Assembly: GCA_016874945.1 (NCBI GenBank)
Contig: VGSO01000001.1
Location: 1-39,178, forward strand
DNA from: Deltaproteobacteria bacterium
Lineage (GTDB): Bacteria > Desulfobacterota > Desulfobaccia > Desulfobaccales > 0-14-0-80-60-11
DNA length: 39,178 nucleotides
Direction of reading: 5' to 3'
Shown here: piece after piece, positions 2,566 through 33,476 of the stretch
Position numbering within the stretch: position 1 is the first letter of the stretch
Layout: the number at the start of each line of letters is the position of its first letter
Notes under the pieces: model-generated
What the model was told of the DNA's origin: nothing
Seen by the model: only the letters and a program-made list of their open reading frames with translations
Databases searched by the model: none
Translations under genes and position numbers: made by a program

Positions 2566-2631
2566 TTCCTGAATTCTCCCGCAAAATTTTGGGGGAAATG
2601 GGGCAACTCTGCCCCTGCCCCAAAAAATTTT

Positions 2632-2660
2632 TTGACTTGTGTCTAACAGGAAATTATGGT
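2632..2660 (+). promoter_or_regulatory. Candidate sigma70 promoter (TTGACT-17 nt-TATGGT) with an A/T-rich upstream tract
   Basis: TTGACT lies at 2632-2637 and TATGGT at 2655-2660, preceded by aaaaaattttt. It sits in a 490-bp lower-GC gap after the synthase stop. Confidence 0.45.
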
Positions 2661-2690
2661 ATATTTTTATTAACCTTTAAAGGAAGACCC

Positions 2691-2852
2691 ATGTTTACCC
2701 CGCAAGGATCATGTTCTATTAAAAACTGTTGCCGTAGGGAGCCCAGCCGATCCTCTAACCCCATAGCGCTCTTCCTAATTGGGCCGACGCTCATAACCAG
2801 CATCTTCGAAACGCTGCAACCGTCTAACCCCTTTACAAAACCGAAAAAATAA
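2691..2852 (+). CDS. Hypothetical 53-aa small membrane peptide with an N-terminal Cys cluster (MFTPQGSCSIKNCC...IALFLIGPTLITSIF...)
   Basis: An internal ATG of the 2589..2852 ORF, about 25 nt downstream of the predicted TSS. AGGAAG lies 4-5 nt upstream of the ATG. There is one hydrophobic segment and no recognisable family. Confidence 0.25.
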   Translation: MFTPQGSCSIKNCCRREPSRSSNPIALFLIGPTLITSIFETLQPSNPFTKPKK

Positions 2853-3057
2853 ATCCCTTGTCCGGAGTTCAAAGAGGAGGTCCGGAAGTGGGCGCAGCCG
2901 GCTGCAAACTTCACCTGGATAAATCCCGAGAGAAGGGAGGTGGCTATCGAGGTAAAGGTTTCTAGCCTGATGGAAAGCAATTTTGGTCGGATCAGTCGGA
3001 CACAGCATCCTTAACAGATTTCTTAAAGTATCGGGGCAGAAGAAAAGGAGGTTTGAC

Positions 3058-4170
3058 ATGAAGGCGCCCAAAATTTTGTTGAGCGCTTTGGCCATCCTGG
3101 CCACCTTGTCCCTTCTGATTTCCGTCGGGCCCGTAGTGGGGGCTGATTGCGGCTTTACCCTGCCGTGCGACGACAGCGTGAGCGTTGCACCCCCCACCCC
3201 GGCCCTGAAGATTTCCAATCCCGCCGGGGCCGGCATCGGCATCATGGGCGCCGCTCACGGCATCGGGGTTTTGGGGCAAACTGAGATCAATTTTGGCGTG
3301 GTGGGAGAAGCCACGGGTTCCGGGAAGGGCGTGAGGGGTTACTCTGCAAGCGGCGTGGGGGTTGAAGGCTGGAGCACCGGGTCCTCTGCCGGGGTAAACG
3401 GGGTGAATGGCAATATGACCGATACCGGCGGCCCGGGGGTATACGGGAACAGTTATAACACTGGCGTGTACGGCCTGGCCCCGAAAATCGGAGTCTTTGG
3501 CAAAACCGGCGGCACGGCCCCCCATGCCGGCGTCAAGGGGCAAAACACGGGGACCGGCTACGGCGTCTATGGCATCAGTTTTAATGGTGTCGCCGGCTAT
3601 TTTGCAATCACCAACCGGGCCAGTGCCAAAACGGCTCTCATGGCGGTAACCAGCGGCAACGGCTGGGCCGGGCAATTTGTTGCCAAAGGCGCCCAGGGCC
3701 GCGGCGTCTATATCTCCACCCCCATCGGCAACCAGGGGCTGGAGGTGGTGGGCGGCCTCAAGAACGCGGTGGTGGCCACCTCCCAGGGAGCCCGCTCCCT
3801 TTCGGCCGAGGAGTCCACGGGCGTCTACTTCACTGATTACGGCTTCGGCAAGCTCAAGGACGGCCAGGCGGTAATCAAAATCGATCCCGTCTTCGCCGAG
3901 ACCGTCAACCTGAACCAGGATTACTTTGTCTTTTTGCAGCCCTACGCCAAGGCGGAATTGTATGTGAGCCAAACCGGCCCCAAGGCCTTTGAGGTGCGCC
4001 TGAACACGGGCGACCCCGAGGCCCGATTCGCCTACCGTCTGGTGGGCAAGCGCCGGGGCTTCGAGCAGGCCCGCCTGCAGCCCGCTCCCTGGGCCGACAA
4101 CGACCCCAACCTATATCCCCAGAAGGGCGCCGACAAGGTGGCTGCAGTCCAGGTAAAGGAAAACAAATAG
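3058..4170 (+). CDS. Secreted glycine-rich repeat protein (G-[VI]-x-G repeats about every 10-13 aa) with a C-terminal globular domain; function unknown
   Basis: ATG at 3058 with AAGGAGG 7 nt upstream; the 2983 start in the track is a TTG artefact. A signal peptide is present (MKAPKILLSALAILATLSLLISVGPVVGA). The repeats read GVLG, GVVG, GVRG, GVEG, GVNG, GVYG, GVFG, GVKG. Confidence 0.8.
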   Translation: MKAPKILLSALAILATLSLLISVGPVVGADCGFTLPCDDSVSVAPPTPALKISNPAGAGIGIMGAAHGIGVLGQTEINFGVVGEATGSGKGVRGYSASGVGVEGWSTGSSAGVNGVNGNMTDTGGPGVYGNSYNTGVYGLAPKIGVFGKTGGTAPHAGVKGQNTGTGYGVYGISFNGVAGYFAITNRASAKTALMAVTSGNGWAGQFVAKGAQGRGVYISTPIGNQGLEVVGGLKNAVVATSQGARSLSAEESTGVYFTDYGFGKLKDGQAVIKIDPVFAETVNLNQDYFVFLQPYAKAELYVSQTGPKAFEVRLNTGDPEARFAYRLVGKRRGFEQARLQPAPWADNDPNLYPQKGADKVAAVQVKENK

Positions 4171-4227
4171 TTCGAGTCATTGTTAACCGCCTAGCCCCAA
4201 AGAACCCGGAGGCTTGCAAAATCTCCC

Positions 4228-4253
4228 GGCCCTGGCCGCAGGCCGCCAGGGCC
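4228..4253. terminator. GC-rich hairpin between convergent genes (GGCCCTGGC-8 nt-GCCAGGGCC)
   Basis: 9-bp perfect stem. Partial T-tracts follow on both strands (gtaaatttctt on plus, gagatttt on minus). Confidence 0.4.
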
Positions 4254-4301
4254 GTAAATTTCTTCCCGGTGTAATTCTTTGTGCCCTCTGTGCCTCTGTG
4301 G

Positions 4302-5057
4302 TTAAACTTGAACCCGCAACCCGTCTTCCGCCCGGATAATTTCGCCGGGAAATTCCTGCCCGGCCAAAGCCGCCACGTCCACCTCATCACAAGGGGGATA
4401 AAAATGGGTCAGCACCAGCCTTTTCACCCCGGCCCGGGCCGCCAGGCGCCCGGCCTCCTGGGGAGTGAGATGCCCCGGCACCTTGAAGGGGTTGGCGGCT
4501 TCCAGCACCAGCAAGTCCGCGCCGTTCGCCAGATCCACCAATGAATCGCTTTCGTCCGTGTCGCCGGAATAGACCAGACTGACCCCTTCAGCCTCCAGGC
4601 GGTAGGCCAGGCTGCTCTCGATGTGGTTGGGGGGCGCGCTTCTGATCACCAGCCCCGGCCAGGAAATTTCACTTGGTCCGTCCGTGGGTAATTCCCTAAG
4701 TTCCATCAAGCCCGGAGGCGCCTTTACCCAATCGCCGTAGGCCATGCTGAGGCCGGCATAAAAATCCGTGAAACCCCGGGCCGCCAGCAGGGTAAACGGC
4801 TCTTTCCGGGTATATCCCAGAGAATAACGGGTGGCAAAGAGAAAAGGGACCAGGTCGCCCACGTGGTCCGGGTGGAAATGGCTCAAGGCGATGATGTCCA
4901 CCTGGTTGAAGTCCAGGCCGTATTTTAACATGGACCGCAGGGCGCCGCTCCCCAGATCCAGAAGGATCAGCTTCTCCGCGGCCTTCACCGCCAGGGCGGG
5001 GGCGCCCCGGCGCAAGGACGGAACCCCGGTCCCCGAGCCGATGACGAGCAGTTCCAT
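4302..5057 (-). CDS. MBL-fold metallo-hydrolase (RNase Z/beta-lactamase superfamily)
   Basis: 251-aa ORF with the HxHxDH motif in SHFHPDHVGD. ATG start. The only SD-like GAGGA lies inside the heptamer repeat arm. Confidence 0.85.
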   Translation of the reverse strand: MELLVIGSGTGVPSLRRGAPALAVKAAEKLILLDLGSGALRSMLKYGLDFNQVDIIALSHFHPDHVGDLVPFLFATRYSLGYTRKEPFTLLAARGFTDFYAGLSMAYGDWVKAPPGLMELRELPTDGPSEISWPGLVIRSAPPNHIESSLAYRLEAEGVSLVYSGDTDESDSLVDLANGADLLVLEAANPFKVPGHLTPQEAGRLAARAGVKRLVLTHFYPPCDEVDVAALAGQEFPGEIIRAEDGLRVQV

Positions 5058-5065
5058 AAAATAAT

Positions 5066-5141
5066 GGTCCTCGGTCTTCGGTCTTCGGTCAAAGAAGACG
5101 AAATTAAATACCGAAAACCGAAGACCGAAAACCGAAAACCG
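5066..5141. repeat. Two inverted heptamer arrays (GGTCCTC GGTCTTC GGTCTTC GGTC ... CCGAAAA CCGAAGA CCGAAAA CCGAAAA CCG) forming a long imperfect hairpin
   Basis: CGGTCTTCGG (5079-5088) is the exact complement of CCGAAGACCG (5118-5127). Flanking units extend the pairing with one mismatch. The array fills the whole gap between two minus-strand genes. Confidence 0.85.
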
Positions 5142-5144
5142 TCT

Positions 5145-5669
5145 TTATTGTCCGTCCACGTGGCCCATCTGTTTGACGTAGAACCAGTCCGCCGGGTCGG
5201 AGAGGTAGTTGTGCATATCCAGGAGGGCCAGGAGGTGGCCCCGTTCCTCGTGGGCCACGCTCATGAAGAAGCGCCGGGCCAGAGGGTCCAGGGTTTCCTT
5301 GGCCAACTTGGTGTAGTAATCGATGGAGCACTCTTCCATTTTGATGCCGGTGCGTAGGGCCTGAAGGTCATCCTGGCCCCCGGCCCCCTCTTTTTCCTTG
5401 GCCATGGCCAGGACGCAGACGTACGGCTCGTGCTTGGGAGGCTTGAATTCCGCCAGGGACGCGGTCCAGTGGGGGTCTTTCTGAATGCTCTGGTAGATTT
5501 CGTTGAACTTCTGGATGTGGTAGATCTCCGATTCCGCCAGGTATTCCAGAATTTCCCGGACGCCTTCGCTTTGAACTTTTTTGGCGGCCTCCAGGTAGAA
5601 CTGGCGGCCCTCCACTTCCATCTGCACCGCGTCTTTTAAGGCCTGGAGCATGTATTCCTGCACTTTCAT
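5145..5669 (-). CDS. Rubrerythrin/ferritin-like di-iron protein (no rubredoxin domain)
   Basis: 174-aa ORF. Di-iron ligand pattern E...ExxH...E...ExxH is present (MEVEG, ESEIYH, KMEEC, EERGH). SD GAGGAGA lies upstream of the ATG. Confidence 0.8.
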   Translation of the reverse strand: MKVQEYMLQALKDAVQMEVEGRQFYLEAAKKVQSEGVREILEYLAESEIYHIQKFNEIYQSIQKDPHWTASLAEFKPPKHEPYVCVLAMAKEKEGAGGQDDLQALRTGIKMEECSIDYYTKLAKETLDPLARRFFMSVAHEERGHLLALLDMHNYLSDPADWFYVKQMGHVDGQ

Positions 5670-5761
5670 GGGAGGGTCTCCTCTATAGAGAATGCACCGG
5701 GAGCAACCCCGGACGGGTGATTAGACTCTTTACCCAAACATAAAGCCAGGCCGCAGCTTTG

Positions 5762-5799
5762 TCAATTCCCCGCGCCAAGACGCCAAGATGCAGAAAAAG
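5762..5799. repeat. Copy A of a dispersed ~40-nt element (tcaattcc..gccaagacgccaag..atgcagaaaaag) containing a CGCCAAGA tandem
   Basis: It aligns with 33549-33594. Both copies lie in divergent intergenic regions. Confidence 0.6.
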
Positions 5800-5910
5800 T
5801 TAACTTTGGGCGGACCCAACCCTCCATAAATTTATTTATTGCCCTCTTGGGTTGGGGCTTTAACGCCCCCCAATGTTGCCATGGCCCCAGGTTCCATGGT
5901 AAAAAAGACC

Positions 5911-6516
5911 ATGCCCAGGTTCAGTCTGGATTTTCTCAAGAAGCGCCTCGCACTGGAATCTCCCCGCCCGGTTCCGGAAGAGGGCATGGTGCCTGCCGGG
6001 GTGCTGGCGCCCTTGTTTCTGAAAAATGGGACGCTCCATATCCTTTTCACCCAGCGGACCCTGACGGTGAAAGACCACAAGGGTCAGATCTCTTTTCCCG
6101 GGGGAGTCCAACACTCCGAAGATCCGGACCTGCTGACCACGGCCCTGCGGGAAACCCAGGAGGAAATCGGCTTGGACCCCCAGGCGGTGGAAGTGCTGGG
6201 GTCCTTGAAACCCATTGCCACCATCACCGGTTACTGGGTCACCGGTTTCGTGGGAGTTATCCCCCACCCTTACGACTTTCACCTCAACCCCCAGGAGGTG
6301 AAACGCCTGCTTTTCTTTCCATTGGAGGGGTTTTGCGATTCCGGGCGCTGGAGCACGGGAAATTATACCTACCGGAGCCGCAATACCCGGGTCTGTTATT
6401 GGACCCATGACAAAACGGTGATCTGGGGAGCCACCGCCCGGATTCTCCTCCATTTCCTGGCCCGCCTGGGGGAATATCCCATCCCCGGAGACCGGGAGGC
6501 CACGTGTTTGGATTAG
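5911..6516 (+). CDS. NUDIX hydrolase, CoA pyrophosphatase type (NudL-like)
   Basis: Nudix box GGVQHSEDPDLLTTALRETQEEIGL is present. The 5911 start (MPRFSLDFLKKRL) is chosen because about 31 aa precede the conserved AGVLAPL, as in NudL. In-frame ATGs at 5881 and 5896 are possible, and the 5839 start in the track is TTG. Confidence 0.82.
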   Translation: MPRFSLDFLKKRLALESPRPVPEEGMVPAGVLAPLFLKNGTLHILFTQRTLTVKDHKGQISFPGGVQHSEDPDLLTTALRETQEEIGLDPQAVEVLGSLKPIATITGYWVTGFVGVIPHPYDFHLNPQEVKRLLFFPLEGFCDSGRWSTGNYTYRSRNTRVCYWTHDKTVIWGATARILLHFLARLGEYPIPGDREATCLD

Positions 6517-25231: not shown

Positions 25232-27298
25232 TTAATGCAAGAACTGGTTCACGTTTAAGAATGGCTGCAGGGGCTGCAGCCCGGCCGGAATGCGGCCGGC
25301 GGCGCCCACCGGCGGAATCTCCATGACGAAGTCGGCGGGCGGCGTGACCGAGAAGTTCACCCCATGGGGAACGAAGAGCTGGGGATGATCGAAGGGCGCC
25401 CGCTCTTCCTGAACCCGGGGATCCGTGAGGCCCATGAGAAAGGCCACCACGGCCGATTTATTGGCATTGTTGCCCCGGATAAAGCCGATGGGAGAAATCT
25501 CCAGGGGGATATCCCCATCCTCATCTATGGTCACATCCGGGAAGTTCCCAAACCGGAAGTTACCGCCCCGGGAGTAAAAGTCCACCACCTGCATCAGGGT
25601 CGCGGCGCTCCCGCTGTGGAAGTAGGGACCCGTCAGGTTGATGTTGCGCAGATGGGGGACCTTGGTGGCGCCGGCATTAACTGCCCGGTCCGGCGTGGGA
25701 CGGGTATCGTTGGGTCTGAAACCAACCGGCAGATCGGGGGTAAACGCGGCCACCGAGGGGGGCAGCAACCCGTCCCGTTTCAGGATGGCCAAACTGGCCC
25801 AGGACAGGGGATACTCCGCCCCGGTGCGGGGGTTGACAAAGGGCGCGGTCCCCGCCCGGCCGGGGTCGTTGGCGGTCCGCACCACGCTGATGTTGGTAAA
25901 ATCCACGTCATAAAGGGCGTCACCCACCGAGAAAGGCATGAGTTCTATGGCGTTGGGCGGGTTTTTGGTCGGGTCGGGGGCAGGAACCGGGACTCCGGGT
26001 ACGGGATCGGGAGGCGCCAGCAGATTCCCCACCGACGCGCCGGTCATTTCGGGGCCAAGGTGGCAAACATTGCACTGCCCATTCCCCTGGAAAATCTGCA
26101 TGCCGAACACCTGCTGCGGAGTCAGGGCATTGGGGAACCCCTCCTGAAAGCGGTCGAAGGGGGTGTCGTCGGCGATCAGGGTGGCCTCGTAGAGCTGCAC
26201 CGCCAGGCCAAAGAAGAGGCTAAAATTGGCCTCCATCTGGTTGTACTGATCGGTGCCCACGGGGGCGCCGGTTTGGACGGTGGGAAGCCCATTGGCGTCA
26301 AAGGTGACAAATTGCGTGGTATTGCTCCAGTACCGGGGCGCGAAGGCTTGCTTGATCAAGTCCGCATAGGTGGCGTTGATGCCTGGGACATTGGTGGGCA
26401 CCCCGGAGACCAGGGTGGACTTGGAGAGGGCGCCCAGGACGCTGTCCTGGGGGTGCACCACCTGCTGGGCCAGGGGCGGCAGACTGAGCATCTTCTTGCC
26501 CACCTTGGGCCAGGTGCGTCCCCTCCAGGACATCTCGAAGTCGCTGAGGGGCGGTCCCACGGCCTGCGAAGCCAGGCTGGCGTTGCGGATGCGGATAACC
26601 ACCGGGGTCAGCGCCCCGCTGATATTCGCCACGATCCTTCTGTTGGGATTGCCGGTCGCGTCCGTGTCCGCGGCGCCGAAGGGGTTGGCGCCGTTGAAGA
26701 TATTGTTGGCCCGGCCGTCCCAGAAGTTGGCGAAGTTGAAGACGGCATTGATCACGGTGGGGGTATTGCGGGGCTCCACCCGGCGAAATCTCCTGCCCCA
26801 AATGGGGTCGGTTAGGGGAGTCCCGGCATCCACGGCATTTCCCGGAACGATATCGGTGAACTGGAAAAGCCGCACCCCCTGGGAAGAGACCACGTCATTC
26901 CAATCCCGGAGTACGCCTTGGCTGGGATCATTGGGATTGACAAACTTGACGAAGGGGAATTTGAACCTGCTCAGGTTGGTGTTGCGAGTGCCCGCCTGGA
27001 AGGTGGTATCCCCCCCCAGGGTGTCGGGGTTGAGTTGGGCCCGGGTCCGGTTGTCGGCCCCGGCGTGGAAATGGCAACTGGCGCAGGCGGTGAAGCCGTC
27101 GCTGCCCACCTGCATGTCCCAGAACAGGGCCTTGCCCAACGTGATGGCCGCGGCTCTATCCCGGACAAAACTGCCGATAGTGGGGGGCTCAGGCACCAGG
27201 ATGGTTTTCAGGGATTGCCCCCAAACGGCTCCGGGCAGAAGAGCCAGTCCCAAGACCATGGCCAGGATAAAACTGGCCCTTAACTTAGAAGCTTGCAT
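25232..27298 (-). CDS. Secreted dihaem cytochrome c peroxidase/MauG-family protein, unusually long (688 aa)
   Basis: A Sec signal is present (MQASKLRASFILAMVLGLALLPGAVWG). There are two CxxCH motifs, CASCH (27071-27085) and CNVCH (26060-26074). SD GGAGGAG lies 8 nt upstream. Confidence 0.9.
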   Translation of the reverse strand: MQASKLRASFILAMVLGLALLPGAVWGQSLKTILVPEPPTIGSFVRDRAAAITLGKALFWDMQVGSDGFTACASCHFHAGADNRTRAQLNPDTLGGDTTFQAGTRNTNLSRFKFPFVKFVNPNDPSQGVLRDWNDVVSSQGVRLFQFTDIVPGNAVDAGTPLTDPIWGRRFRRVEPRNTPTVINAVFNFANFWDGRANNIFNGANPFGAADTDATGNPNRRIVANISGALTPVVIRIRNASLASQAVGPPLSDFEMSWRGRTWPKVGKKMLSLPPLAQQVVHPQDSVLGALSKSTLVSGVPTNVPGINATYADLIKQAFAPRYWSNTTQFVTFDANGLPTVQTGAPVGTDQYNQMEANFSLFFGLAVQLYEATLIADDTPFDRFQEGFPNALTPQQVFGMQIFQGNGQCNVCHLGPEMTGASVGNLLAPPDPVPGVPVPAPDPTKNPPNAIELMPFSVGDALYDVDFTNISVVRTANDPGRAGTAPFVNPRTGAEYPLSWASLAILKRDGLLPPSVAAFTPDLPVGFRPNDTRPTPDRAVNAGATKVPHLRNINLTGPYFHSGSAATLMQVVDFYSRGGNFRFGNFPDVTIDEDGDIPLEISPIGFIRGNNANKSAVVAFLMGLTDPRVQEERAPFDHPQLFVPHGVNFSVTPPADFVMEIPPVGAAGRIPAGLQPLQPFLNVNQFLH

Positions 27299-27497
27299 AA
27301 CCTATTCTCCTCCCCTTTCTCCCCTGCAATTTACTCCATTTTAATTACAACGGTCATCCTCTTCATGCTTTTGCGGCTTAATTTGGCAAAACTGGAGAAG
27401 CCTTATAATAAAGAGGGGATCCTCGGGCCAGACGCCCGGAGAACCCCGTTTGGTTAACCGGTCTCGGGGGCCTTAGGCCCCCGAGGCTGAAGGTTAG

Positions 27498-28757
27498 TTA
27501 CGGCAACAGAGTGGTCTGGATGGTTGCCGCGCCGCCCAAGGCGGACCTCACGGTGACCGAAACCGGGGCATTGACGTTCGCGATCACCGTGTCGGCCCCG
27601 CCGACGTTCAACAGCCGGCCGGCGGCCCCCGCACCTGGGAAGAAGGCCCTCAGGGCCGGCGGGTTGACGGCCACGGAGGAAACGGCCGCCACGGTCAACG
27701 TCCGGGTGGCGATGGCATAGGTGGCCTTGGTGATGGTGACCACGTCCTTGAGGGGGGCCGTCAGAATAGTCTGTTGCACCGGAGGGCCGGCGATGGTCCC
27801 GGTGACCGTCACGTTCGCCGGGAAAGCCGGGGCTGCCCAGGGGATGAGGGCGGCGAAGACCGCGGTGGCGCCCTGCCTCACCAAGGGAACGGCCGCCTGG
27901 CCCGGCAACCCCGCGGTAATCGTCGAACCGGCGGGGATGGGTCGGGGGAAGTTGGCGAACACCTGGGCAGTGGCCCCGCCGACGGCCGGCACGCTAACGG
28001 TGGACTGGGTGACTTTGAAGGGGACGCCGGTGAACAACTCGGCCCCGGTGACAAACAGGTTGGTCTGGGCGTTGTTCCAACCCCCCCCGTTGACCCGGAA
28101 AAAGTTGTTGCCGGTGGGGCTGCCGGTGACCGGGGCGAGGGTGGCGGCGTCACCGAGAGACCCCGGAGGCGCGCCCACCTGCTTCAGGAAAGGCCCGATA
28201 TCCCCGACCCGCGCGGCATTGAAGTTTAACGGCACGGCCCCGATGTCAATGGTGTCGTTGATGGACCGGTTGCCCGGTTGGACGTTCTGATAGGTCCGGG
28301 CGCCGTAAGGATGAGTCACCGTGACGTCTCCGGCGACGGTGGTGTCAATGCGGATCCGGACCCGGGCGAAGACCATCTGATCCCCGTTGGCGGCGTCTCC
28401 TTGGGCAAAAGCGGCCTCCAACGCCAGAACCAATAAGGCATCTCCCGGAACGCCGGGATTGCTGACGGGGTCCATGGTGGCGGTGCTATGCCAATACATG
28501 GCTTCGCTGTTGAAGCCGATCTGGAGGGCAAAAGGGTTAACCGGGAACCCATCCAGTACGGGATCATTGTCCGGAATGCTCAGGGGGCTGGGCGGGACGG
28601 ACAACGTCACCGTCTGGCCCAGGGAGTCCCGGTACCAGACGGGAAAGCCGTTAGTCGGGTTTACCGGACCCACGGCCGTCAAAGCCGGCAGCGCCGCCTG
28701 GGCGAAAGCCAGGACCAGCGCCGCGGCCAACAAAAGGACTCTACCCTTCTTCAACAT
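27498..28757 (-). CDS. Secreted hypothetical protein (419 aa), no recognisable domain
   Basis: A Sec signal is present (MLKKGRVLLLAAALVLAFAQAALPA). SD AAGGAGA lies 8 nt upstream. The protein is Cys-free and rich in Ala/Gly/Val/Thr/Pro, with beta-rich-looking C-terminal segments (VTITKATYAIATRTLTVAAVSS). Confidence 0.8.
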   Translation of the reverse strand: MLKKGRVLLLAAALVLAFAQAALPALTAVGPVNPTNGFPVWYRDSLGQTVTLSVPPSPLSIPDNDPVLDGFPVNPFALQIGFNSEAMYWHSTATMDPVSNPGVPGDALLVLALEAAFAQGDAANGDQMVFARVRIRIDTTVAGDVTVTHPYGARTYQNVQPGNRSINDTIDIGAVPLNFNAARVGDIGPFLKQVGAPPGSLGDAATLAPVTGSPTGNNFFRVNGGGWNNAQTNLFVTGAELFTGVPFKVTQSTVSVPAVGGATAQVFANFPRPIPAGSTITAGLPGQAAVPLVRQGATAVFAALIPWAAPAFPANVTVTGTIAGPPVQQTILTAPLKDVVTITKATYAIATRTLTVAAVSSVAVNPPALRAFFPGAGAAGRLLNVGGADTVIANVNAPVSVTVRSALGGAATIQTTLLP

Positions 28758-28868
28758 GATTCTTGTCTCCTTTTTTTGGGCCTGGCCGGGCCAACCCCGG
28801 GGTGATCCGGCAACAGGGCAGTTTTAACCTTAATTATTGATGCGAGAGAGGAAACGATCAATGGGCAT

Positions 28869-28916
28869 TTTTACCTATTTTAGTATAGGTACTTTTTTGG
28901 ATAGGTATAGGTAAAA
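28869..28916. promoter_or_regulatory. Cluster of four ATAGGTA/TACCTAT half-sites upstream of the 419-aa gene
   Basis: TACCTAT lies at 28872-28878 and ATAGGTA at 28885-28891, 28901-28907 and 28907-28913. A 10-nt inverted repeat pairs TTTTACCTAT (28869-78) with ATAGGTAAAA (28907-16). The half-site matches the palindromes at 32391-32691. Confidence 0.55.
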
Positions 28917-28942
28917 CTACCAGGTTAATAAAACCTCACGCG

Positions 28943-28971
28943 GGACCGCGGCCCCTGGGGGGCCGCGGTCC
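28943..28971 (-). terminator. Intrinsic terminator after MCO-A
   Basis: A 13-bp GC stem (GGACCGCGGCCCC / GGGGCCGCGGTCC) sits 10 nt after the stop. On the minus strand GCGTGAGGTTTTATT follows. Confidence 0.6.
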
Positions 28972-28980
28972 GAAGCCGGG

Positions 28981-30459
28981 TTAAGCGGTGATATTGATGG
29001 GAATCCGGGCGGTAAATCTCCGGGAGCGACCCCTTAAGGTGTCCAGAAAGTCCACCGTGGCGAAGCCGCTGAAGGGCGCACTCTCCCGGATCAGGCAGTC
29101 AAAGCGCCGGGCCACGCTGAACTCCATGGGGGTGCCGGCCGGCACCAGCACGGGGGAATTGTACGTGCCGAAAGGCGGCACTCCCAGGGCCCGGCCGTCC
29201 CAGGCGATGATCACGATGTTCACCGGGAAGGTCACCCGGACGCTGTTGTAGGCCGCGTTGAGGACCCGGACCAGGATGTTCCGGTTGACCCGGGAGTTGA
29301 TGGACACCTGGACGCCGGAAACGCCGCTCATCAGATACGGCGGGACGACGATGCCCGGGGGCAGGTCCCCCGTTCCCCCCAGCGGGCCCGGCACGTTGAC
29401 CCCGGTGACGTACCAGTGGGTGGAGCGGTAATCGTTGAAGGCGAAGAAATCCGTGGGGAGGACCGGGACCAGGGGATCCCCGTGGGAATAAAAATTATCG
29501 TTGACCCCCGGTATGGTGCCTTCCACGGGAAAAGTTTGCGCAGAATTCTGAGCCAGGCGGGACCAGCGGATGTCCCGGTCGTCGAACACCCAGATGGCCT
29601 CGTTTTGGTAATGGACGGTATAGGCATGGGGGTTGGTGGGAAACTGGCCCTGGGGGTCCGGACTGGTCAGGGGGACGCGGTACGACGGATGCTGGTTGAA
29701 CTGGGGGAAGTTCGCCAGGTTGGCCGCCACCCGGCGGCTGCCGTTGGGGAAACCCAGGGACGGCCGGCTGAAACCGATGGGCCGGTTGTTCAGGACCACG
29801 GAGCCATTCGGGTTGACGGATGCAATGGAGGCATAAAAGGCGTCCGGCGGGTCCACCACGAAAAAGCCGTACAACCCGAACTCGAAGTGCTGCACGGTGT
29901 TCCGGTGGCAGTGGTAGAAGTAGCTGCCCATGTGGTTGGGCTGGAACTGGTAGGTATAGCGGCCCAGCTCCATGGAGCAGTGCCCCACCCCGTCGTTGAT
30001 GGGGGTGGGCTCGAACCCGTGCCAGTGGATGGTGTGGGGCGGTTGCGGGCTGCCCTGGGTTTCGCACTTGAAATCGCAGCCCCGGGGGGCCCGGATGGTG
30101 GGCGCGGGGAAGCTCCCGTCAATCGCTTCATTGATGCCGGTAGGGTCATTCATGAGGAAAAAGTCCATGGGCCGGTTGTCCCAGGTGGGCATAATCATGC
30201 CGTGCAACAGGGACCGATGCACCGTATTAGGCGGGCGGGGCGGGTTTCGGTCCAGGAAACCGGCCGCGGCCATGACCTCCGGCACGGGGTTGGGAAAGGG
30301 AAAATTGGCGGCAGTCAGCGGCACCGCCAGGGGCGGGCGAACCACCAGATCCGGGGTGGCCGGGCTCTCTCTGGGGGGGTCGAACATCTTGCTGTGCATC
30401 CCCTCCATGCCCGCCACCGACCTGCGAAGGACTCGAAACGCTGGATTTTGGAATGACAT
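28981..30459 (-). CDS. Multicopper-oxidase-like protein A: N-terminal cupredoxin domain with T1 ligands and four trinuclear-cluster His, a degenerate C-terminal domain, and no signal peptide
   Basis: HTIHWHG lies at 30016-30036 and YHCHRNTVQHFEFGLYG at 29872-29913. The C-terminal region ILVRVLNA...VIIAWDG has no HxH pairs. SD AAGGAGAA lies 5 nt upstream of the ATG. Confidence 0.85.
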   Translation of the reverse strand: MSFQNPAFRVLRRSVAGMEGMHSKMFDPPRESPATPDLVVRPPLAVPLTAANFPFPNPVPEVMAAAGFLDRNPPRPPNTVHRSLLHGMIMPTWDNRPMDFFLMNDPTGINEAIDGSFPAPTIRAPRGCDFKCETQGSPQPPHTIHWHGFEPTPINDGVGHCSMELGRYTYQFQPNHMGSYFYHCHRNTVQHFEFGLYGFFVVDPPDAFYASIASVNPNGSVVLNNRPIGFSRPSLGFPNGSRRVAANLANFPQFNQHPSYRVPLTSPDPQGQFPTNPHAYTVHYQNEAIWVFDDRDIRWSRLAQNSAQTFPVEGTIPGVNDNFYSHGDPLVPVLPTDFFAFNDYRSTHWYVTGVNVPGPLGGTGDLPPGIVVPPYLMSGVSGVQVSINSRVNRNILVRVLNAAYNSVRVTFPVNIVIIAWDGRALGVPPFGTYNSPVLVPAGTPMEFSVARRFDCLIRESAPFSGFATVDFLDTLRGRSRRFTARIPINITA

Positions 30460-30490
30460 ATTCGTTCTCCTTTAAAATCTCAGGGAAGGT

Positions 30491-32128
30491 TTACGGGAAC
30501 GCCGGGTCCACAAAGGGCGGCGGGAACGGCGGCCGGGGAGTCTGGGATAACAACTCCGAGTCCTTGCTGGGCCCCATGACGCCGTCGCGCCGCGCCTCGT
30601 CAATGCCATACACCAGGATCTGGGGAACTTGATCGAGACCGAGCATCATGGCGAAATCCTCGTCCATGGGGAAGGTCTGCGGCGGCAGCAGGGGCATATC
30701 CGGGTTGCTGCCGGGAGCGGCAAACCGGTCGTTGACGTTAAAGCGCGGCAGGGTGATGTTTAGGTCGCCGATGAAATATTGTCCGCCGATGACGCCGCAG
30801 TTGTAGTTGCCCCCCTGGGAGGTCTGGGAGGGCTCGGAATGGTCGTGAGCCGGATAGCACAGGGGCGACAGCCGCACCGGAATGGTATTGCCGAAGGCCA
30901 GGTCAAACTCCTCCACGGGCGGCCAGGTGGTGGCGCCGTTGGCAGTGGGAAGCGGAGCGTCCGCCAGGCCGATGCCCCGGACATTGTGAACGTCCGGCGG
31001 CCGCTGGAAGAGCATCAGTATATCATACCGGCTGGAGGGAGCCCCGAATTGGTTGGCCTGGAAGGTGTCCACCCAGATGACCCCGGGGCGGGTGAGGGTG
31101 GCATTGGCGGGAACCGGGGCGCCCATGACCACGCCGTCCACCGAGAGGAGGTAAAAGTGGTTGGCGTGGATGTGCATGGAATGGGTCATCAACCCGGCGT
31201 TCAGGACCCGGAGCACGCAGGGCTCGCCTACCCGGGCCATGGGGGTGACCACCGGGTTGTTATGGGAGAAATGGCCGGACTGGCCCATGGAGGTGAAGTA
31301 TTGGGGGATGTCGCTGGCCACGGTCAGGTCGTGATTATTGCGGCCGAAGGCGTCTCTGGTGAATCTCCGCACGAATTCCGCGGCCGGGAAGATCTGCCCG
31401 GCCGGGAGGCTGCCCACGTCCCGGAAGAGGAGGGGGCTGGCCTGGCTGAGGAGCCAGATATACTGCCGGAAGGGTGGGGTCTGGGTGGGCGCATTGGCCT
31501 GTTCCCAGGCCAGGCCGGGGAAGTGGGCGGCGGCGCCCAGGTCGTTGAACAATTGCTGCACCTGGGGAGTGGGATTGGCATAGGGCGTCCATTTTTGCCC
31601 CGCCGCCGGCGCCGCGGGCATGACGACGAAGGCGCCGTGCAGCCCCATCACCCGGTTCACCGGGGCATTCAGGGAGTCGAAATAGAGATAGGTGCCCGGG
31701 GCGCCGGCCGCAAATATGAAATCTCTCGGGACGCCGTCCGGCGGGATGGGCCCGCTGTTGAACATTCCTCGAATGACCAGGCTATGTGGCTCATCCAGGG
31801 CGTTGGTGATTCTGAGAGAGATGATGTCCCCCGTGGTGGCAAAGAGGGTGGGGCCGGGGCAATCGGCGGGAAGGTCAATGACCCGGCCGTCGCCCAGAGT
31901 CGCGGTCATCTTGTAAATCCAGAAGTAACATTCGCCGTTGCCGGGCCCGGCAATTACCGAGAGGGCGTTAAAGGTCGCCATCTCCTTGATGCAATCGGTG
32001 ATGGTGATGTCAAGACGGGCGATGTGGTCGGCCTGGGCCGGCTTGGCTCCCAGCCAGGGGAGCTTGGTACCCAACATCAAGGCGGCCGAGGCGCCGGTGG
32101 CGTACTTGATAAAATCTCGTCTTTCCAT
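30491..32128 (-). CDS. Multicopper-oxidase-like protein B with a Tat signal: degenerate N-terminal domain, C-terminal domain with HxxHxH and H-D-H
   Basis: ATG at 32128 (MERRDFIKYATGASAALMLG...AQA) has AGGAG 7 nt upstream, and the 32143 start in the track is TTG. The twin-Arg motif lies at 32105-32122. HSMHIH lies at 31166-31183 and HDH at 30839-30847. EPHSLVIRG and GTYLYFDS occupy the places of HWHG and WYHSH. Confidence 0.85.
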   Translation of the reverse strand: MERRDFIKYATGASAALMLGTKLPWLGAKPAQADHIARLDITITDCIKEMATFNALSVIAGPGNGECYFWIYKMTATLGDGRVIDLPADCPGPTLFATTGDIISLRITNALDEPHSLVIRGMFNSGPIPPDGVPRDFIFAAGAPGTYLYFDSLNAPVNRVMGLHGAFVVMPAAPAAGQKWTPYANPTPQVQQLFNDLGAAAHFPGLAWEQANAPTQTPPFRQYIWLLSQASPLLFRDVGSLPAGQIFPAAEFVRRFTRDAFGRNNHDLTVASDIPQYFTSMGQSGHFSHNNPVVTPMARVGEPCVLRVLNAGLMTHSMHIHANHFYLLSVDGVVMGAPVPANATLTRPGVIWVDTFQANQFGAPSSRYDILMLFQRPPDVHNVRGIGLADAPLPTANGATTWPPVEEFDLAFGNTIPVRLSPLCYPAHDHSEPSQTSQGGNYNCGVIGGQYFIGDLNITLPRFNVNDRFAAPGSNPDMPLLPPQTFPMDEDFAMMLGLDQVPQILVYGIDEARRDGVMGPSKDSELLSQTPRPPFPPPFVDPAFP

Positions 32129-32172
32129 GGGTGTTCTCCTCAATTTAAGGATTAATCACATCATTTGGCCTC

Positions 32173-32212
32173 ATGTTTATCTACGAAGCCTCATGTTTAT
32201 CTATGTTTATCT
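32173..32212. promoter_or_regulatory. Three direct copies of ATGTTTATCT at 32173, 32193 and 32203 (10- and 20-bp phasing), 45-85 nt upstream of the MCO-B start
   Basis: Direct reading. Longer units CCTCATGTTTATCTA x2 and TGTTTATCTACGAA x2 are present. On the coding (minus) strand the repeat is AGATAAACAT. Confidence 0.5.
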
Positions 32213-32262
32213 ACGAAACTAATTTTTGTGAGTTCCTCCTCCTGCCTTGAAAAGTTCAAGAT

Positions 32263-32284
32263 GCACAGGCTGGAAAGCCTGTGC
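32263..32284. other. Perfect 9-bp hairpin GCACAGGCT-ggaa-AGCCTGTGC in the MCO upstream region
   Basis: Direct reading. A second hairpin TGAGCC-gaa-GGCTCA lies at 32311-32325. Confidence 0.6.
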
Positions 32285-32390
32285 TACTGATACTTTTCAT
32301 GGTTTATGGGTGAGCCGAAGGCTCATGGCCAACTGCTTTAATTAAAGTTTCATGTTAGGTTTGATTATATGAGTCCCCAGATTATAATAA

Positions 32391-32408
32391 ATAGGTAAAA
32401 GTGCCTAT
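32391..32408. promoter_or_regulatory. Palindromic operator candidate ATAGGTA-aaag-TGCCTAT
   Basis: It sits next to two minus-strand TATAAT boxes (32381-32386 and 32364-32369). It is the first part of a ~40-nt module repeated at 32650. Confidence 0.5.
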
Positions 32409-32649
32409 TTTAGATGGACAACCAACTGAATCATGGGCAAAAGCAGTTAGTTGGCCTCCCTGGCGGAAAGGATGCCTGGCATTGGCCATGGTCCTCTCCT
32501 GGCAGCATCAATCCTTTCCCGGCGACTTGTGGCCCGGTAACGTCTTGTTGCATGGGAAGTTTCTCCTTCCTGAGGCTTATTTGCGCTCAACACCGGAGGA
32601 CTGAGCAGTTACTGCATGATATTTTAATGGTATGTAAGATAAAAAATCC

Positions 32650-32691
32650 ATAGGCATAAATGCCTATTTTGAGGATAGACAATCTGTCTAT
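32650..32691. promoter_or_regulatory. Two adjacent perfect palindromes: ATAGGCA-taaa-TGCCTAT (32650-32667) and ATAGACA-atc-TGTCTAT (32675-32691)
   Basis: Direct reading. The half-site consensus is ATAGRYA. Confidence 0.6.
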
Positions 32692-32861
32692 TGGGAAGAG
32701 GCCACCGACTATCCGGCGGTTGAGAAAATCCTGAACGATGCAGGAAATCTATGAAGTAATTGCAACAACTGGATTCTGCGCTTTGGTCAGAATGGCAAAT
32801 TCACACAAATAGAAATTTATCAACGGCCTGACAGAATCCATAATCCCTCGCTACTCTCTTG

Positions 32862-33476
32862 CTATCGGACCAGCCGCCAGGCCACCCAGGTGAAACTCCC
32901 CTCGGGGGGCATCTCGATAACCCATTCATCTTGAGTGGCGCGGCGCCTCCGGGACCAGCCCATTTTCCGGTAAAGGGTTAGGAGCTCTTCCTCCTGGGTG
33001 TCCTTGAAACCGGAAAGGATCAAGGCGGCCCCCGGCGCGGCCAATCGGGACAGTTCCGCGGCTTTGGCCAACTGCACCGGGAGGGGCAGGTTGGCCATGA
33101 TCAGCGGGAAACTGCCTTTGATGGCCTCGGTGGACCCCTGGACCACGGGAACCTGTCTTTCCAACCCATTCCTCCGGGCATTGTCCCGGGAGACCTGCAC
33201 CGCTTGCGAGCTAAGATCCACTCCCACGCAGAAGGGAGCGCCCAGGGCCGCGGCGGCCAGGGCCAGGATGCCGGAGCCGCACCCCACGTCCAGGACCGGG
33301 GCGCCGGGGTGTTCGGTCAAAGTTGCGGCCAGCAGTTGCAGGCAAAGGCGGGTGGTGGGGTGGCTGGGCGGAAAGACCTGGGGCGCTTGCAGCACCAGGA
33401 CCCGCTCGCCCCGGCGGGGAAAGTATGGCCGCCAGGGAGAGCGCAGCACCAGGCCGGGGGTGAGGCGGTGGAACAT
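32862..33476 (-). CDS. PrmA-like class I SAM methyltransferase (ribosomal protein L11 methyltransferase family) lacking the usual N-terminal domain
   Basis: HPTTRLCLQLL, VLDVGCGSGILALAAAALGA and VGVDLSSQAVQVSRDNARRNGL are present. At 204 aa it is short of the roughly 290 aa typical for PrmA. No clear SD. Confidence 0.7.
   Translation of the reverse strand: MFHRLTPGLVLRSPWRPYFPRRGERVLVLQAPQVFPPSHPTTRLCLQLLAATLTEHPGAPVLDVGCGSGILALAAAALGAPFCVGVDLSSQAVQVSRDNARRNGLERQVPVVQGSTEAIKGSFPLIMANLPLPVQLAKAAELSRLAAPGAALILSGFKDTQEEELLTLYRKMGWSRRRRATQDEWVIEMPPEGSFTWVAWRLVR

What the first reader, a model, noticed from the sequence alone, without database searches (positions are those of the whole stretch)
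32391..32691. Family of ATAGRYA palindromes organised as a duplicated ~40-nt module bracketing a 240-bp GC-rich segment upstream of the MCO genes
Three palindromes are present: ATAGGTA-aaag-TGCCTAT (32391-32408), ATAGGCA-taaa-TGCCTAT (32650-32667, perfect) and ATAGACA-atc-TGTCTAT (32675-32691, perfect). The sequences after the first and second are also similar: ...CCTATTTTAGATGGACAA versus ...CCTATTTTGAGGATAGACAA. So 32391-32428 and 32650-32691 look like two diverged copies of one operator module, 259 bp apart. The proximal copy abuts two minus-strand TATAAT boxes (32381-32386 and 32364-32369), which suggests repression by promoter occlusion and possibly DNA looping. No regulator gene is visible in the window.
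Basis: seen in the sequence. Interest (0 to 1): 0.6.

Follow-up and report, generated by a model that had tools for sequence, protein, structure and literature searches.

The report
Conserved operator palindromes of oxidase promoters
The three palindromes are real and most likely binding sites for a still unidentified transcription factor that controls a copper-oxidase/peroxidase gene cluster in uncultured sulfate-reducer relatives; this is an ordinary kind of gene switch, but the DNA motif and its regulon appear not to have been described.

Summary
All three palindromes are at the stated coordinates, against none expected by chance in the window. A fourth copy lies upstream of the 419-aa gene of the same cluster.

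The same 18-22 bp dyad, AAATAGGYA-N4-TRCCTATTT, recurs upstream of homologous multicopper-oxidase (MCO) genes and partner genes in other Desulfobaccales, other Desulfobacterota and Nitrospirota. There are 8 hits in 32.6 kb of upstream DNA, against 0.15 expected.

A relative has two tandem copies at the same genomic position, just downstream of prmA. So these are protein-binding regulatory DNA sites. They are not RNA hairpins and not ends of a mobile element.

In 11 of 23 sites a -10-like hexamer lies 21-23 nt on the gene side. That puts the dyad centre near -43, abutting the -35 region.

The "duplicated module" is therefore best read as two tandem operator-plus-promoter units. The distal unit would transcribe the single-copy, non-coding GC-rich segment, which folds well only on the gene strand.

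This geometry fits activation, or control at the -35 region, better than the proposed occlusion of the -10 box. Looping is untested.

The regulator is unknown. A NarL-type response regulator is the leading, circumstantial candidate.

The parts
32675..32691 (.). Palindrome 3, ATAGACA-N3-TGTCTAT. Auxiliary site 24.5 bp (centre to centre) upstream of palindrome 2.
   Evidence: Tandem dyads 24 bp apart recur in L214, L215 and L206. TTGTCTATCC(Y)C-AAATAGGCA is shared with metagenome contig L129.
32650..32667 (.). Palindrome 2, ATAGGCA-N4-TGCCTAT (perfect). Distal operator.
   Evidence: Also scored as a weak terminator-like hairpin on the minus strand.
32621..32626 (-). Predicted -10 hexamer TAAAAT of the distal promoter P2, 23 nt from palindrome 2.
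   Evidence: family-wide peak of -10-like hexamers at 21-23 nt. Prediction only; no transcript data.
32409..32620 (-). GC-rich single-copy segment. Probably a structured 5' leader, or a small RNA, transcribed from P2 towards MCO-B. Non-coding by composition.
   Evidence: Fold z = -2.5 on the minus strand against +0.4 on the plus strand. GC3 of all ORFs 0.49-0.54 against 0.75-0.84 in neighbouring genes. The 40-aa ORF has 0 homologues among 1.84 billion representatives. No Rfam family. No similar DNA or protein in any fetched locus. Depth 27, equal to the genome, so single copy, and no deletion variants.
32414..32439 (.). Two extra heptamers of the same family: ATGGACA at 32414-32420 and ATGGGCA at 32433-32439. 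They lie upstream (gene sense) of palindrome 1.
   Evidence: A third half-site 5-7 nt upstream of the dyad is seen at most sites.
32391..32408 (.). Palindrome 1, ATAGGTA-N4-TGCCTAT. Proximal operator.
32364..32369 (-). TATAAT, 21 nt from palindrome 1. Predicted -10 of the proximal promoter P1, in the family-typical geometry.
32381..32386 (-). Second TATAAT, only 4 nt from palindrome 1.
   Evidence: It also forms part of a plus-strand TTGATT-16-TATAAT match (32361-32388, 10 of 12) that points into the GC-rich segment.
32259..32338 (.). Dispersed two-hairpin repeat inside the leader between P1 and the MCO-B start. Not part of the operator module.
   Evidence: Summed contig depth 2,260-6,500 against 27 on either side, with about 120 contigs per run. 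Copies in L124 and L085 carry compensatory stem changes.
28861..28878 (.). Fourth dyad. In gene sense it reads ATAGGTA-AAAA-TGCCCAT. It lies upstream of the 419-aa gene.
   Evidence: The scan tool independently calls the minus-strand promoter TTGATC-17-AATAAT (28861 to 28833) abutting it.
28872..28913 (.). Four further ATAGGTA/TACCTAT heptamers just upstream (gene sense) of the fourth dyad. The TACCTAT at 28872-28878 is the dyad's own arm.
25232..32128 (-). Genes the sites precede: Tat-signal MCO-B (30491-32128), MCO-A (28981-30459), the 419-aa secreted protein (27498-28757) and a MauG-like di-haem peroxidase (25232-27298).
   Evidence: Homologues of MCO-B, of the 419-aa protein and of the peroxidase carry the same dyad upstream in other genomes.

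Best explanation
The palindromes are DNA binding sites of a dimeric, sequence-specific transcription factor encoded outside the window. This factor controls a small regulon: the split multicopper oxidase pair, the 419-aa secreted protein and a MauG-like peroxidase, plus other exported or Cys-rich proteins in relatives.

The basic unit is the heptamer TRCCYAT. Its usual arrangement is [TRYCYAT]-N5-7-[ATAGGYA-N4-TRCCYAT], followed 21-23 nt later by a -10-like hexamer. The main dyad is therefore centred near -43 and touches the -35 region.

The window holds three such units:
- P2, the distal unit: palindromes 3 and 2, then TAAAAT at 32621-32626.
- P1, the proximal unit: palindrome 1, then TATAAT at 32364-32369.
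- One unit in front of the 419-aa gene.

So the 'duplicated module' is a pair of tandem regulated promoters. P2 would transcribe the GC-rich segment as a structured leader that runs on through P1 into MCO-B.

Shown here: the sites exist, they are conserved across lineages, they are enriched upstream of this gene family, and they keep a fixed distance to a -10-like hexamer.

Inferred:
- The sites bind a protein (about 0.85).
- The tandem-promoter reading is right (about 0.55).
- The factor activates rather than represses (about 0.5-0.6).
- The factor is a NarL/FixJ-type response regulator (about 0.3-0.35).
For: - Chance in the window: 3 exact matches against 0 in shuffles.
- Conservation upstream of homologues: the same dyad lies upstream of MCO-B homologues in L008, L010 (two sites), L034, L081, L085, L207 and L206. 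That is 8 hits with at most 1 mismatch in 32.6 kb of upstream DNA from 83 homologues, against 0.15 expected. Only 7 hits lie in the other 885 kb, and 3 of those precede other cluster genes.
- Blind metagenome scan: it recovered sites upstream of homologues of the 419-aa protein (L177, L153), an MCO pair (L170) and another Cu-oxidase protein (L124).
- Close relatives: L214 (LonC 85% identical) has two tandem dyads at the same position downstream of prmA, in front of a MauG-like peroxidase. L215 and L216 have them in front of a Cys-rich 157-aa gene.
- Fixed geometry: 11 of 23 sites have a -10-like hexamer 21-23 nt on the gene side, against 3 of 23 on the other side (binomial p about 3e-6). The scan tool independently finds TTGATC-17-AATAAT abutting site 4.
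- DNA site rather than RNA hairpin: the arm sequence is invariant instead of covarying. Mixed arms (GGCA...TACC in site 1 and in L034) would give C-A mismatches in the gene-sense RNA.
- Not a mobile element: the module and the core are single copy in the lake metagenome.
- Regulator candidate: the response regulators of L211 and L212 (92% relatives; in L211 the gene sits next to prmA) are 52-56% identical to the regulators encoded directly beside MCO-B homologues in L007 and L009. Unrelated NarL-type regulators score 31-40%. L009 has TACCCAT-N6-ATGGGTA upstream of its MCO gene.
Against: - There are no transcript data, so every promoter and start site is a prediction.
- Only about half of the sites show the -10 hexamer at 21-23 nt, and the sites are not all phylogenetically independent.
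- Three loci (L073, L207, L206b) have good sigma-54-type promoters downstream of the site instead.
- The TATAAT 4 nt from site 1, and a 10-of-12 plus-strand promoter match pointing the other way, allow other readings of the proximal module.
- The whole genome could not be scanned, so the motif's distribution in this genome is unknown.
- No regulator is linked in cis in the window or in most site-bearing loci. L211 and L212 carry no sites near their two-component genes. L007, which has the related regulator, uses a different upstream motif.
Confidence: 0.7

Rival explanations
1. A repressor binds palindrome 1 over the -10/-35 of the TATAAT at 32381-32386 and occludes the promoter. Binding is strengthened by a DNA loop to the distal copy 259 bp away.
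For: The TATAAT at 32381-32386 lies 4 nt from site 1, so a bound dimer would cover its spacer and -35 region. Two-site arrangements recur: L010 has sites 187 bp apart. A site that abuts the -35 region could also repress.
Against: The conserved geometry places the dyad upstream of -35, not over -10 or the start site. No other site in 23 has a -10 box at 3-5 nt apart from L177, which also has one at 22 nt. Extra half-sites extend away from the promoter, as is usual for activators. 259 and 187 bp are not integral numbers of helical turns (24.7 and 17.8).
Confidence: 0.2
2. The dyads are upstream activating sequences for a sigma-54 enhancer-binding protein, acting at a distance on a -24/-12 promoter.
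For: The sites lie 140-300 bp upstream of start codons and come as tandem dyads. Good -24/-12 matches lie downstream of the site in L073 (TGGCATGTAACTTGCT, 0 of 500 shuffles), L207 (3 of 500) and L206b (18 of 500). Four contigs have the exact dyad upstream of an orthologous PAS/sigma-54 activator gene.
Against: The window's best -24/-12 match, AGGCCAACTAACTGCT at 32457-32442, is not significant (93 of 500 shuffles) and lies between the two modules. L010 has no GG-N10-GC candidate at all and L008 only a weak one that shuffles easily beat. The activator's orthologues in Desulfobulbus propionicus and Desulfogranum japonicum lack the dyad but keep another palindrome, so the activator looks like a target rather than the binder.
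Confidence: 0.1
3. The palindromes act in RNA. Palindrome 2 would be the prmA terminator. Alternatively, palindromes 1 and 2 would be the start and terminator of a plus-strand small RNA covering the GC-rich segment.
For: The scan tool scores palindrome 2 plus GGATTTTTTA as terminator-like on the minus strand. It also finds a 10-of-12 plus-strand promoter (32361-32388) aimed at the segment.
Against: The stems have 7 pairs with only 3 G-C pairs, in a genome whose clear terminators are GC-rich (for example 28940-28970). The arm sequence is invariant across phyla rather than covarying. Most copies lie upstream of predicted promoters. The segment folds no better than shuffles on the plus strand (z = +0.4).
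Confidence: 0.07
4. The 240-bp segment is an inserted mobile element (MITE-like), and the flanking modules are its inverted or direct terminal repeats.
For: Repeats bracket a compositionally distinct segment. The position downstream of prmA varies in gene content among relatives.
Against: The segment and its flanks are single copy in four lake metagenome runs, with no empty-site variant. The same dyads occur at other promoters with no such insert. The real dispersed repeat of this spacer lies elsewhere (32259-32338).
Confidence: 0.03

Closest known systems
NarL/NarP heptamer sites of Escherichia coli (consensus TACYYMT, often paired as 7-2-7); recalled from memory, not tested against data
   Same: TACCTAT and ATAGGTA fit TACYYMT and its complement exactly. 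Several heptamers occur in alternating orientation upstream of the promoter. NarL-type two-component genes lie beside MCO homologues in L007, L009, L083 and L069, and beside prmA in the close relative L211.
   Different: The main pair is tail-to-tail with a 4-bp spacer, not head-to-head 7-2-7. TGCCTAT and TGTCTAT depart from TAC. No response regulator has been shown to bind, and none is encoded in the window.
LuxR/TraR-type boxes (18-20 bp dyads centred near -42.5) and other GerE-domain dyads such as the ComA box (6-4-6); recalled from memory
   Same: An 18-bp dyad with a 4-bp centre lies immediately upstream of, and touching, the -35 region of a promoter with a weak -35.
   Different: The sequence is unrelated. 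There is no autoinducer-type regulator nearby. The position is predicted, not mapped.
FNR/CRP class II activator sites (TTGAT-N4-ATCAA at -41.5); recalled from memory
   Same: A palindrome with a 4-bp spacer lies close to -41.5 and stands in for a good -35.
   Different: The half-site sequence differs. The centre is about 2 bp further upstream. Extra half-sites are present.
DtxR/IdeR iron boxes (TTAGGTTAGCCTAACCTAA); recalled from memory
   Same: They share the TAGGT/ACCTA pentamers in inverted orientation. IdeR can activate from tandem boxes upstream of -35.
   Different: The pentamers are 6 bp apart here, not 7. There is no link to iron genes or to a DtxR gene.
Copper-responsive control of multicopper oxidases (CueR at cueO; CopY and CsoR operators); recalled from memory
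   Same: A regulated promoter sits in front of a Tat-exported multicopper oxidase.
   Different: The CueR dyad lies between -35 and -10 with a 19-bp spacer. CopY (TACAnnTGTA) and CsoR (G/C-tract) boxes do not resemble this motif.

Membership tests
Transcription-factor operator or activator site (cis-regulatory dyad) | Occurs more often than chance and outside coding sequence | tested here: met
   3 matches against 0 expected in the window. All four window copies lie in the two spacers of the MCO cluster.
Transcription-factor operator or activator site (cis-regulatory dyad) | Conserved upstream of orthologous genes in other genomes while the flanking spacer diverges | tested here: met
   8 hits in 32.6 kb upstream of 83 MCO-B homologues against 0.15 expected. 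Sites also occur in L214, L215, L216, L177 and L153.
Transcription-factor operator or activator site (cis-regulatory dyad) | Fixed position relative to core promoter elements | tested here: met
   A -10-like hexamer lies at 21-23 nt in 11 of 23 sites, p about 3e-6. Promoters are predicted only.
Transcription-factor operator or activator site (cis-regulatory dyad) | Specific binding by a protein and an effect on transcription | not testable with these tools
   Needs EMSA or footprinting and reporter assays.
NarL/FixJ-family response-regulator site | Heptamers matching TACYYMT (consensus recalled from memory) | tested here: met
   TACCTAT and TACCCAT match. TGCCTAT and TGTCTAT differ at position 2.
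NarL/FixJ-family response-regulator site | Canonical 7-2-7 head-to-head pairing | tested here: not met
   The main pair is tail-to-tail, 7-4-7. The flanking pair is head-to-head but 7-(5-7)-7.
NarL/FixJ-family response-regulator site | Cognate REC+GerE regulator genetically linked to the sites | tested here: inconclusive
   There is none in the window. A related regulator group (52-56% identical) lies beside MCO homologues in L007 and L009, and beside prmA in L211. L211 and L212 have no sites, and L007 has another motif.
Sigma-54 enhancer (UAS) | A -24/-12 promoter (GG-N10-GC) downstream of the sites | tested here: inconclusive
   Strong matches in L073, L207 and L206b. The window's best match is not significant. 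L010 and L008 have no convincing match.
Intrinsic terminator | Stable G+C-rich stem followed by a U tract | tested here: not met
   Only palindrome 2 passes the loose scan (7 pairs, 3 G-C). Palindromes 1, 3 and 4 do not.
MITE / insertion with terminal repeats | Multiple copies in the genome or population, or empty-site alleles | tested here: not met
   Depth over 32340-32713 equals the genome's (27), and no joints skip the segment in 4 runs.
Known RNA family (riboswitch, leader or small RNA) in the GC-rich segment | Match to an Rfam covariance model | tested here: not met
   No hit at gathering score in the window. The only hit in 32000-33000 at E up to 10 is a chance-level leuA-Halobacteria match at 32664-32733, right of the segment (14 bits against 47.9).
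Small protein gene in the GC-rich segment | Coding-like composition and homologues | tested here: not met
   GC3 is 0.49-0.54 against 0.75-0.84 in neighbouring genes. The 40-aa ORF has no homologue among 1.84 billion representatives.

The most novel reading that the evidence does not exclude
The dyad AAATAGGYA-N4-TRCCTATTT is the recognition site of an undescribed regulator. That regulator would be a NarL-type response regulator paired with a REC-PAS-GAF-HisKA_3 kinase and a FixL-like PAS protein, as seen in the close relative L211. In strictly anaerobic Desulfobaccales and Nitrospirota it would switch on an oxygen- or redox-responsive regulon of exported oxidases: the split multicopper oxidase, a MauG-like peroxidase and Cys-rich proteins. 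This would be a new regulator/operator pair shared across phyla.
Probability: 0.3. Interest if true: 0.55.

Novelty: new member of a known kind. Interest (0 to 1): 0.4.

Why it matters
The motif gives a concrete handle on an otherwise opaque gene cluster of uncultured anaerobes: a two-gene 'split' multicopper oxidase, an orphan secreted protein and a di-haem peroxidase.

With a position weight matrix built from about 25 sites, the full regulon can be read out of any Desulfobaccales or Nitrospirota genome. The regulator can be sought by co-occurrence. The inducing signal (oxygen, copper or redox) can be tested with simple reporter constructs.

As regulation goes, the arrangement is conventional: dyad sites next to promoters, in tandem promoter units.

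Tried and rejected
- Rfam on the window and on the spacer: nothing.
- The GC-rich segment as a gene or gene remnant: no tblastx or blastn match in any locus, no homologue of the 40-aa ORF, and non-coding GC3.
- Regulator in cis: all-against-all clustering of ORFs around site-bearing MCO loci found only the MCO genes, the 419-aa protein and the peroxidase shared.
- PAS/sigma-54 activator as the binder: rejected as the leading candidate. Its orthologues in D. propionicus and Desulfogranum lack the dyad but keep a TTCCG-N6-CGGAA-like palindrome.
- NarL-type regulators next to metagenome hits (L105, L096 and the L131 group): they are only 33-40% identical to each other and to the L211 group. The L131 site sits in a terminator-like long hairpin. 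I treat these as probably chance.
- Most of the 119 metagenome hits are AT-rich hairpins in low-GC contigs, that is, noise.
- Literature search for the heptamers returned primers and unrelated sites.
- Only DNA runs hold this sequence, so there is no transcript evidence.

Full report
**Observation**

The pattern ATAGRYA-N3-4-TRYCTAT matches only these three places in the 39-kb window, and none of 100 dinucleotide-preserving shuffles gave a match. The two longer copies are part of a 26-nt direct repeat at 81% identity, 259 bp apart. The half-site itself is over-represented, 20 against 8.0 +/- 3.0. Its copies cluster in this spacer and at 28872-28913. Both minus-strand TATAAT boxes exist.

**Setting**

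Both flanking genes are on the minus strand. They are a PrmA-like methyltransferase (32862-33476) and a Tat-signal multicopper oxidase, MCO-B. Its real start is the ATG at 32128 (MERRDFIKY), preceded by GAGGAGAA. Downstream follow MCO-A, a 419-aa secreted protein and a MauG-like di-haem peroxidase.

The genome is a Lake Tanganyika metagenome bin. An identical contig, L002, comes from JGI sample 3300020084.

**The palindrome is conserved upstream of the same gene family elsewhere**

I fetched 80 genome loci that encode MCO-B homologues.

- The exact pattern occurs upstream of the homologue in a Deltaproteobacteria MAG (L008) and in two other Lake Tanganyika MAGs (L034, L081).
- With one mismatch it occurs twice upstream of the homologue in a Desulfobacca MAG (L010, sites 187 bp apart) and once in L085.
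- It also precedes other cluster genes in L073 and L085.
- Two of the closest homologues found through the protein index show it too. L206 (65% identity) has it upstream of both of its operons, and L207 (59%) has it 140 bp upstream of the start.

Counted formally, the 400 nt upstream of 83 homologues (32.6 kb) hold 8 hits with at most one mismatch, against 0.15 expected from shuffles. The other 885 kb hold 7 hits. Three of those precede other cluster genes and four lie in one conserved coding stretch. The consensus extends to AAATAGGYA-N4-TRCCTATTT.

**A blind metagenome scan and close relatives agree**

I scanned the metagenome collection for the 22-nt consensus. It returned 119 contigs, mostly AT-rich hairpins in low-GC DNA. 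Among the contigs with at least 50% G+C it recovered:

- an MCO pair (L170);
- two homologues of the 419-aa protein with the site upstream (L177, L153);
- another Cu-oxidase protein (L124);
- several exported proteins (FG-GAP, DUF11 and VIT).

Close relatives of the window's organism are the most telling.

- L214 (LonC 85%, PrmA 68% identical) has two tandem dyads 24 bp apart in the spacer just downstream of prmA. That is the same genomic position as in the window. There they precede a MauG-like peroxidase that is 43% identical to the window's.
- L215 and L216 (LonC 82-83%) have the dyad upstream of a Cys-rich 157-aa gene.

Inside the window a fourth dyad lies at 28861-28878, upstream of the 419-aa gene. 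This confirms an earlier first-reader note (e1-3309897).

**Anatomy**

Read in the direction of the genes, most sites have a third heptamer of the same family 5-7 nt upstream of the dyad. The unit is [TRYCYAT]-N5-7-[ATAGGYA-N4-TRCCYAT]. Tandem dyads with centres 24-24.5 bp apart recur in the window (palindromes 3 and 2), in L214, in L215 and in L206.

The strongest regularity is downstream of the dyad. In 11 of 23 sites a -10-like hexamer starts 21-23 nt after the dyad on the gene side. Only 3 of 23 have one on the other side, and the background is 9.7% (binomial p about 3e-6; the sites are not all independent). A TTGnnn hexamer often overlaps the last T of the dyad.

The consensus scan tool independently reports TTGATC-17-AATAAT abutting the fourth dyad. 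This puts the dyad centre near -43.

In the window the fitting hexamers are:

- TATAAT at 32364-32369, 21 nt from palindrome 1;
- TAAAAT at 32621-32626, 23 nt from palindrome 2;
- AATAAT at 28833-28838, 22 nt from the fourth dyad.

**What the duplicated module is**

Each copy is an operator plus its own putative promoter. The two copies are best read as tandem promoters, P2 (distal) and P1 (proximal).

The segment between them is single copy in four lake metagenome runs. Its depth of 27 equals the genome's, and there are no deletion variants. It matches no Rfam family and has no relative in any fetched locus. It does not look coding: the GC3 of every ORF is 0.49-0.54, against 0.75-0.84 in neighbouring genes. 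A 40-codon ORF with a good Shine-Dalgarno sequence has no homologue among 1.84 billion representative proteins.

As RNA, the segment folds better than shuffles only on the gene strand. For the core alone z is -2.5 on the minus strand against +0.4 on the plus strand. For 32385-32700 the values are -4.1 and -1.2. That fits a structured leader, or a small RNA, made from P2. This is inference, because only DNA runs contain this sequence.

**DNA site or RNA hairpin**

The arm sequence is invariant across orders and phyla instead of covarying. Mixed arms occur, and in the gene-sense RNA they would give a C-A mismatch (site 1 and L034). Most copies lie upstream of the predicted promoters. Only palindrome 2 passes a loose terminator scan, with 7 pairs of which 3 are G-C. 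I therefore give the RNA reading little weight.

**Activator or repressor**

That arrangement is not the conserved one. A dyad at about -43 that touches a weak -35, with further half-sites extending upstream, is the common layout of activators (class II sites, LuxR-type boxes; from general knowledge). A regulator that blocks the -35 region cannot be excluded. I put activation at 0.5-0.6.

Three loci (L073, L207, L206b) have convincing sigma-54-type promoters downstream of the dyad. The window, L008 and L010 have none that is convincing. A sigma-54 enhancer role is therefore a minor rival for this locus.

**Who binds**

No regulator gene is shared in cis among site-bearing loci, and no regulator was found in the window.

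Four metagenome contigs carry the exact dyad upstream of an orthologous PAS/sigma-54 activator of Desulfobulbaceae. Its orthologues in Desulfobulbus propionicus and Desulfogranum japonicum lack the dyad and keep a different palindrome. That protein is therefore more likely a target than the binder.

The leading candidate is a NarL/FixJ-type response regulator, for three reasons.

- From memory, the heptamers fit the NarL consensus TACYYMT, although the pairing is 7-4-7 tail-to-tail rather than 7-2-7.
- HisKA_3 kinase and REC+GerE regulator pairs lie directly beside MCO-B homologues in L007, L009, L083 and L069.
- In the 92% relative L211, the position downstream of prmA is occupied by REC, REC-PAS-GAF-HisKA_3, REC+GerE and PAS genes.

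The L211 and L212 regulators are 52-56% identical to those of L007 and L009. Unrelated NarL-type regulators score 31-40%. L009 has TACCCAT-N6-ATGGGTA upstream of its MCO gene.

Against this, L211 and L212 show no dyads, and L007 uses another motif. NCBIfam places the regulator only generically, with MctR/NarL-like hits below the cut-off.

Earlier unverified notes of this scan link TAGGTA/TACCTA dyads to NarL-type regulators in other genomes. I take these as leads only. I put this assignment at 0.3-0.35.

**Comparison with known systems, and novelty**

The kind of element is ordinary: dyad operator sites at fixed distance from promoters, in tandem promoter units. The motif does not match, as I recall them, the operators that control multicopper oxidases (CueR, CopY, CsoR). 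It resembles NarL heptamers, LuxR-type boxes, FNR sites and DtxR boxes only in part. A literature search for the heptamers found nothing relevant.

I file it as a new member of a known kind. Its value is practical, because it defines a regulon around an unusual split oxidase in uncultured anaerobes.

**Limits**

- There are no transcript data.
- All promoters are predictions.
- The regulator is unidentified.

Noticed in passing
window 32259-32338: A roughly 80-nt element with two hairpins (GCACAGGC...GCCTGTGC and TGAGCC-GAA-GGCTCA) is a dispersed repeat. Summed contig depth is 2,260-6,500 against 27 beside it, with about 120 contigs per lake run, many at this genome's own depth. Assembly contigs break there. 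Copies in L124 (1794-1839) and L085 (10223-10266) keep the linker sequence and change the first stem by compensatory substitutions. No Rfam match.
   Followed up: partly
window 32361-32388 (+ strand): TTGATT-16-TATAAT, 10 of 12 matches, points away from MCO-B into palindrome 1 and the GC-rich segment. It could be an antisense or divergent promoter. The plus-strand RNA of the segment is not unusually structured.
   Followed up: partly
L211 3331-7088; L214 298-2706; L215 3085-3531; L216 7011-7457: The position downstream of prmA varies among close relatives. L211 has a NarL-type two-component cluster, L214 a peroxidase with the dyads, L215 and L216 a TPR protein, and the window the MCO cluster. 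In L212 the same two-component genes sit next to a DDE transposase.
   Followed up: partly
L145 6700-7120, L147 2650-3150, L148 3050-3500, L179 1500-1830; L209 2860-3000, L210 2800-3000: A PAS/sigma-54 activator conserved in Desulfobulbaceae, downstream of mutY, has a second conserved palindrome, TTCCG-N6-CGGAA, in its upstream region. D. propionicus and Desulfogranum keep a related TTTCTCGGAAAAAAAATTGTG stretch. This may be its own autoregulatory site.
   Followed up: partly
L206 324-341 and 3751-3768: In the closest MCO-B homologue locus, each TAGGTA dyad is followed 6-8 nt later by a second, different 6-4-6 palindrome, TGAGTA-GTTT-TACTCA. This forms a composite site duplicated in front of both operons.
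   Followed up: no
L007 3040-3080 and 5880-5900: The Thermodesulfovibrionales locus with the related response regulator has a different shared motif, ACGTAGTA(C/G)TAC, in front of both of its MCO operons.
   Followed up: no
L215 9669-10142, L216 13595-14068; L085 1188-1661, L129 161-637: Two unrelated families of about 157-aa Cys-rich proteins with no Pfam or NCBIfam match each carry the dyad upstream. They are possible further regulon members. The second family is followed by an FG-GAP protein.
   Followed up: partly
L207 5670-5800: The spacer upstream of this MCO-B homologue also holds three GTCCTACAAA direct repeats and several GAAATGTCAC-like repeats. This suggests additional regulators.
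   Followed up: no
window 32166-32217: Tandem 10- and 20-nt repeats (GCCTCATGTTTATCTA twice, ATGTTTATCTACGAA twice) lie 45-90 nt upstream of the MCO-B start, confirmed by the repeat finder. This is already the subject of another first-stage note.
   Followed up: no
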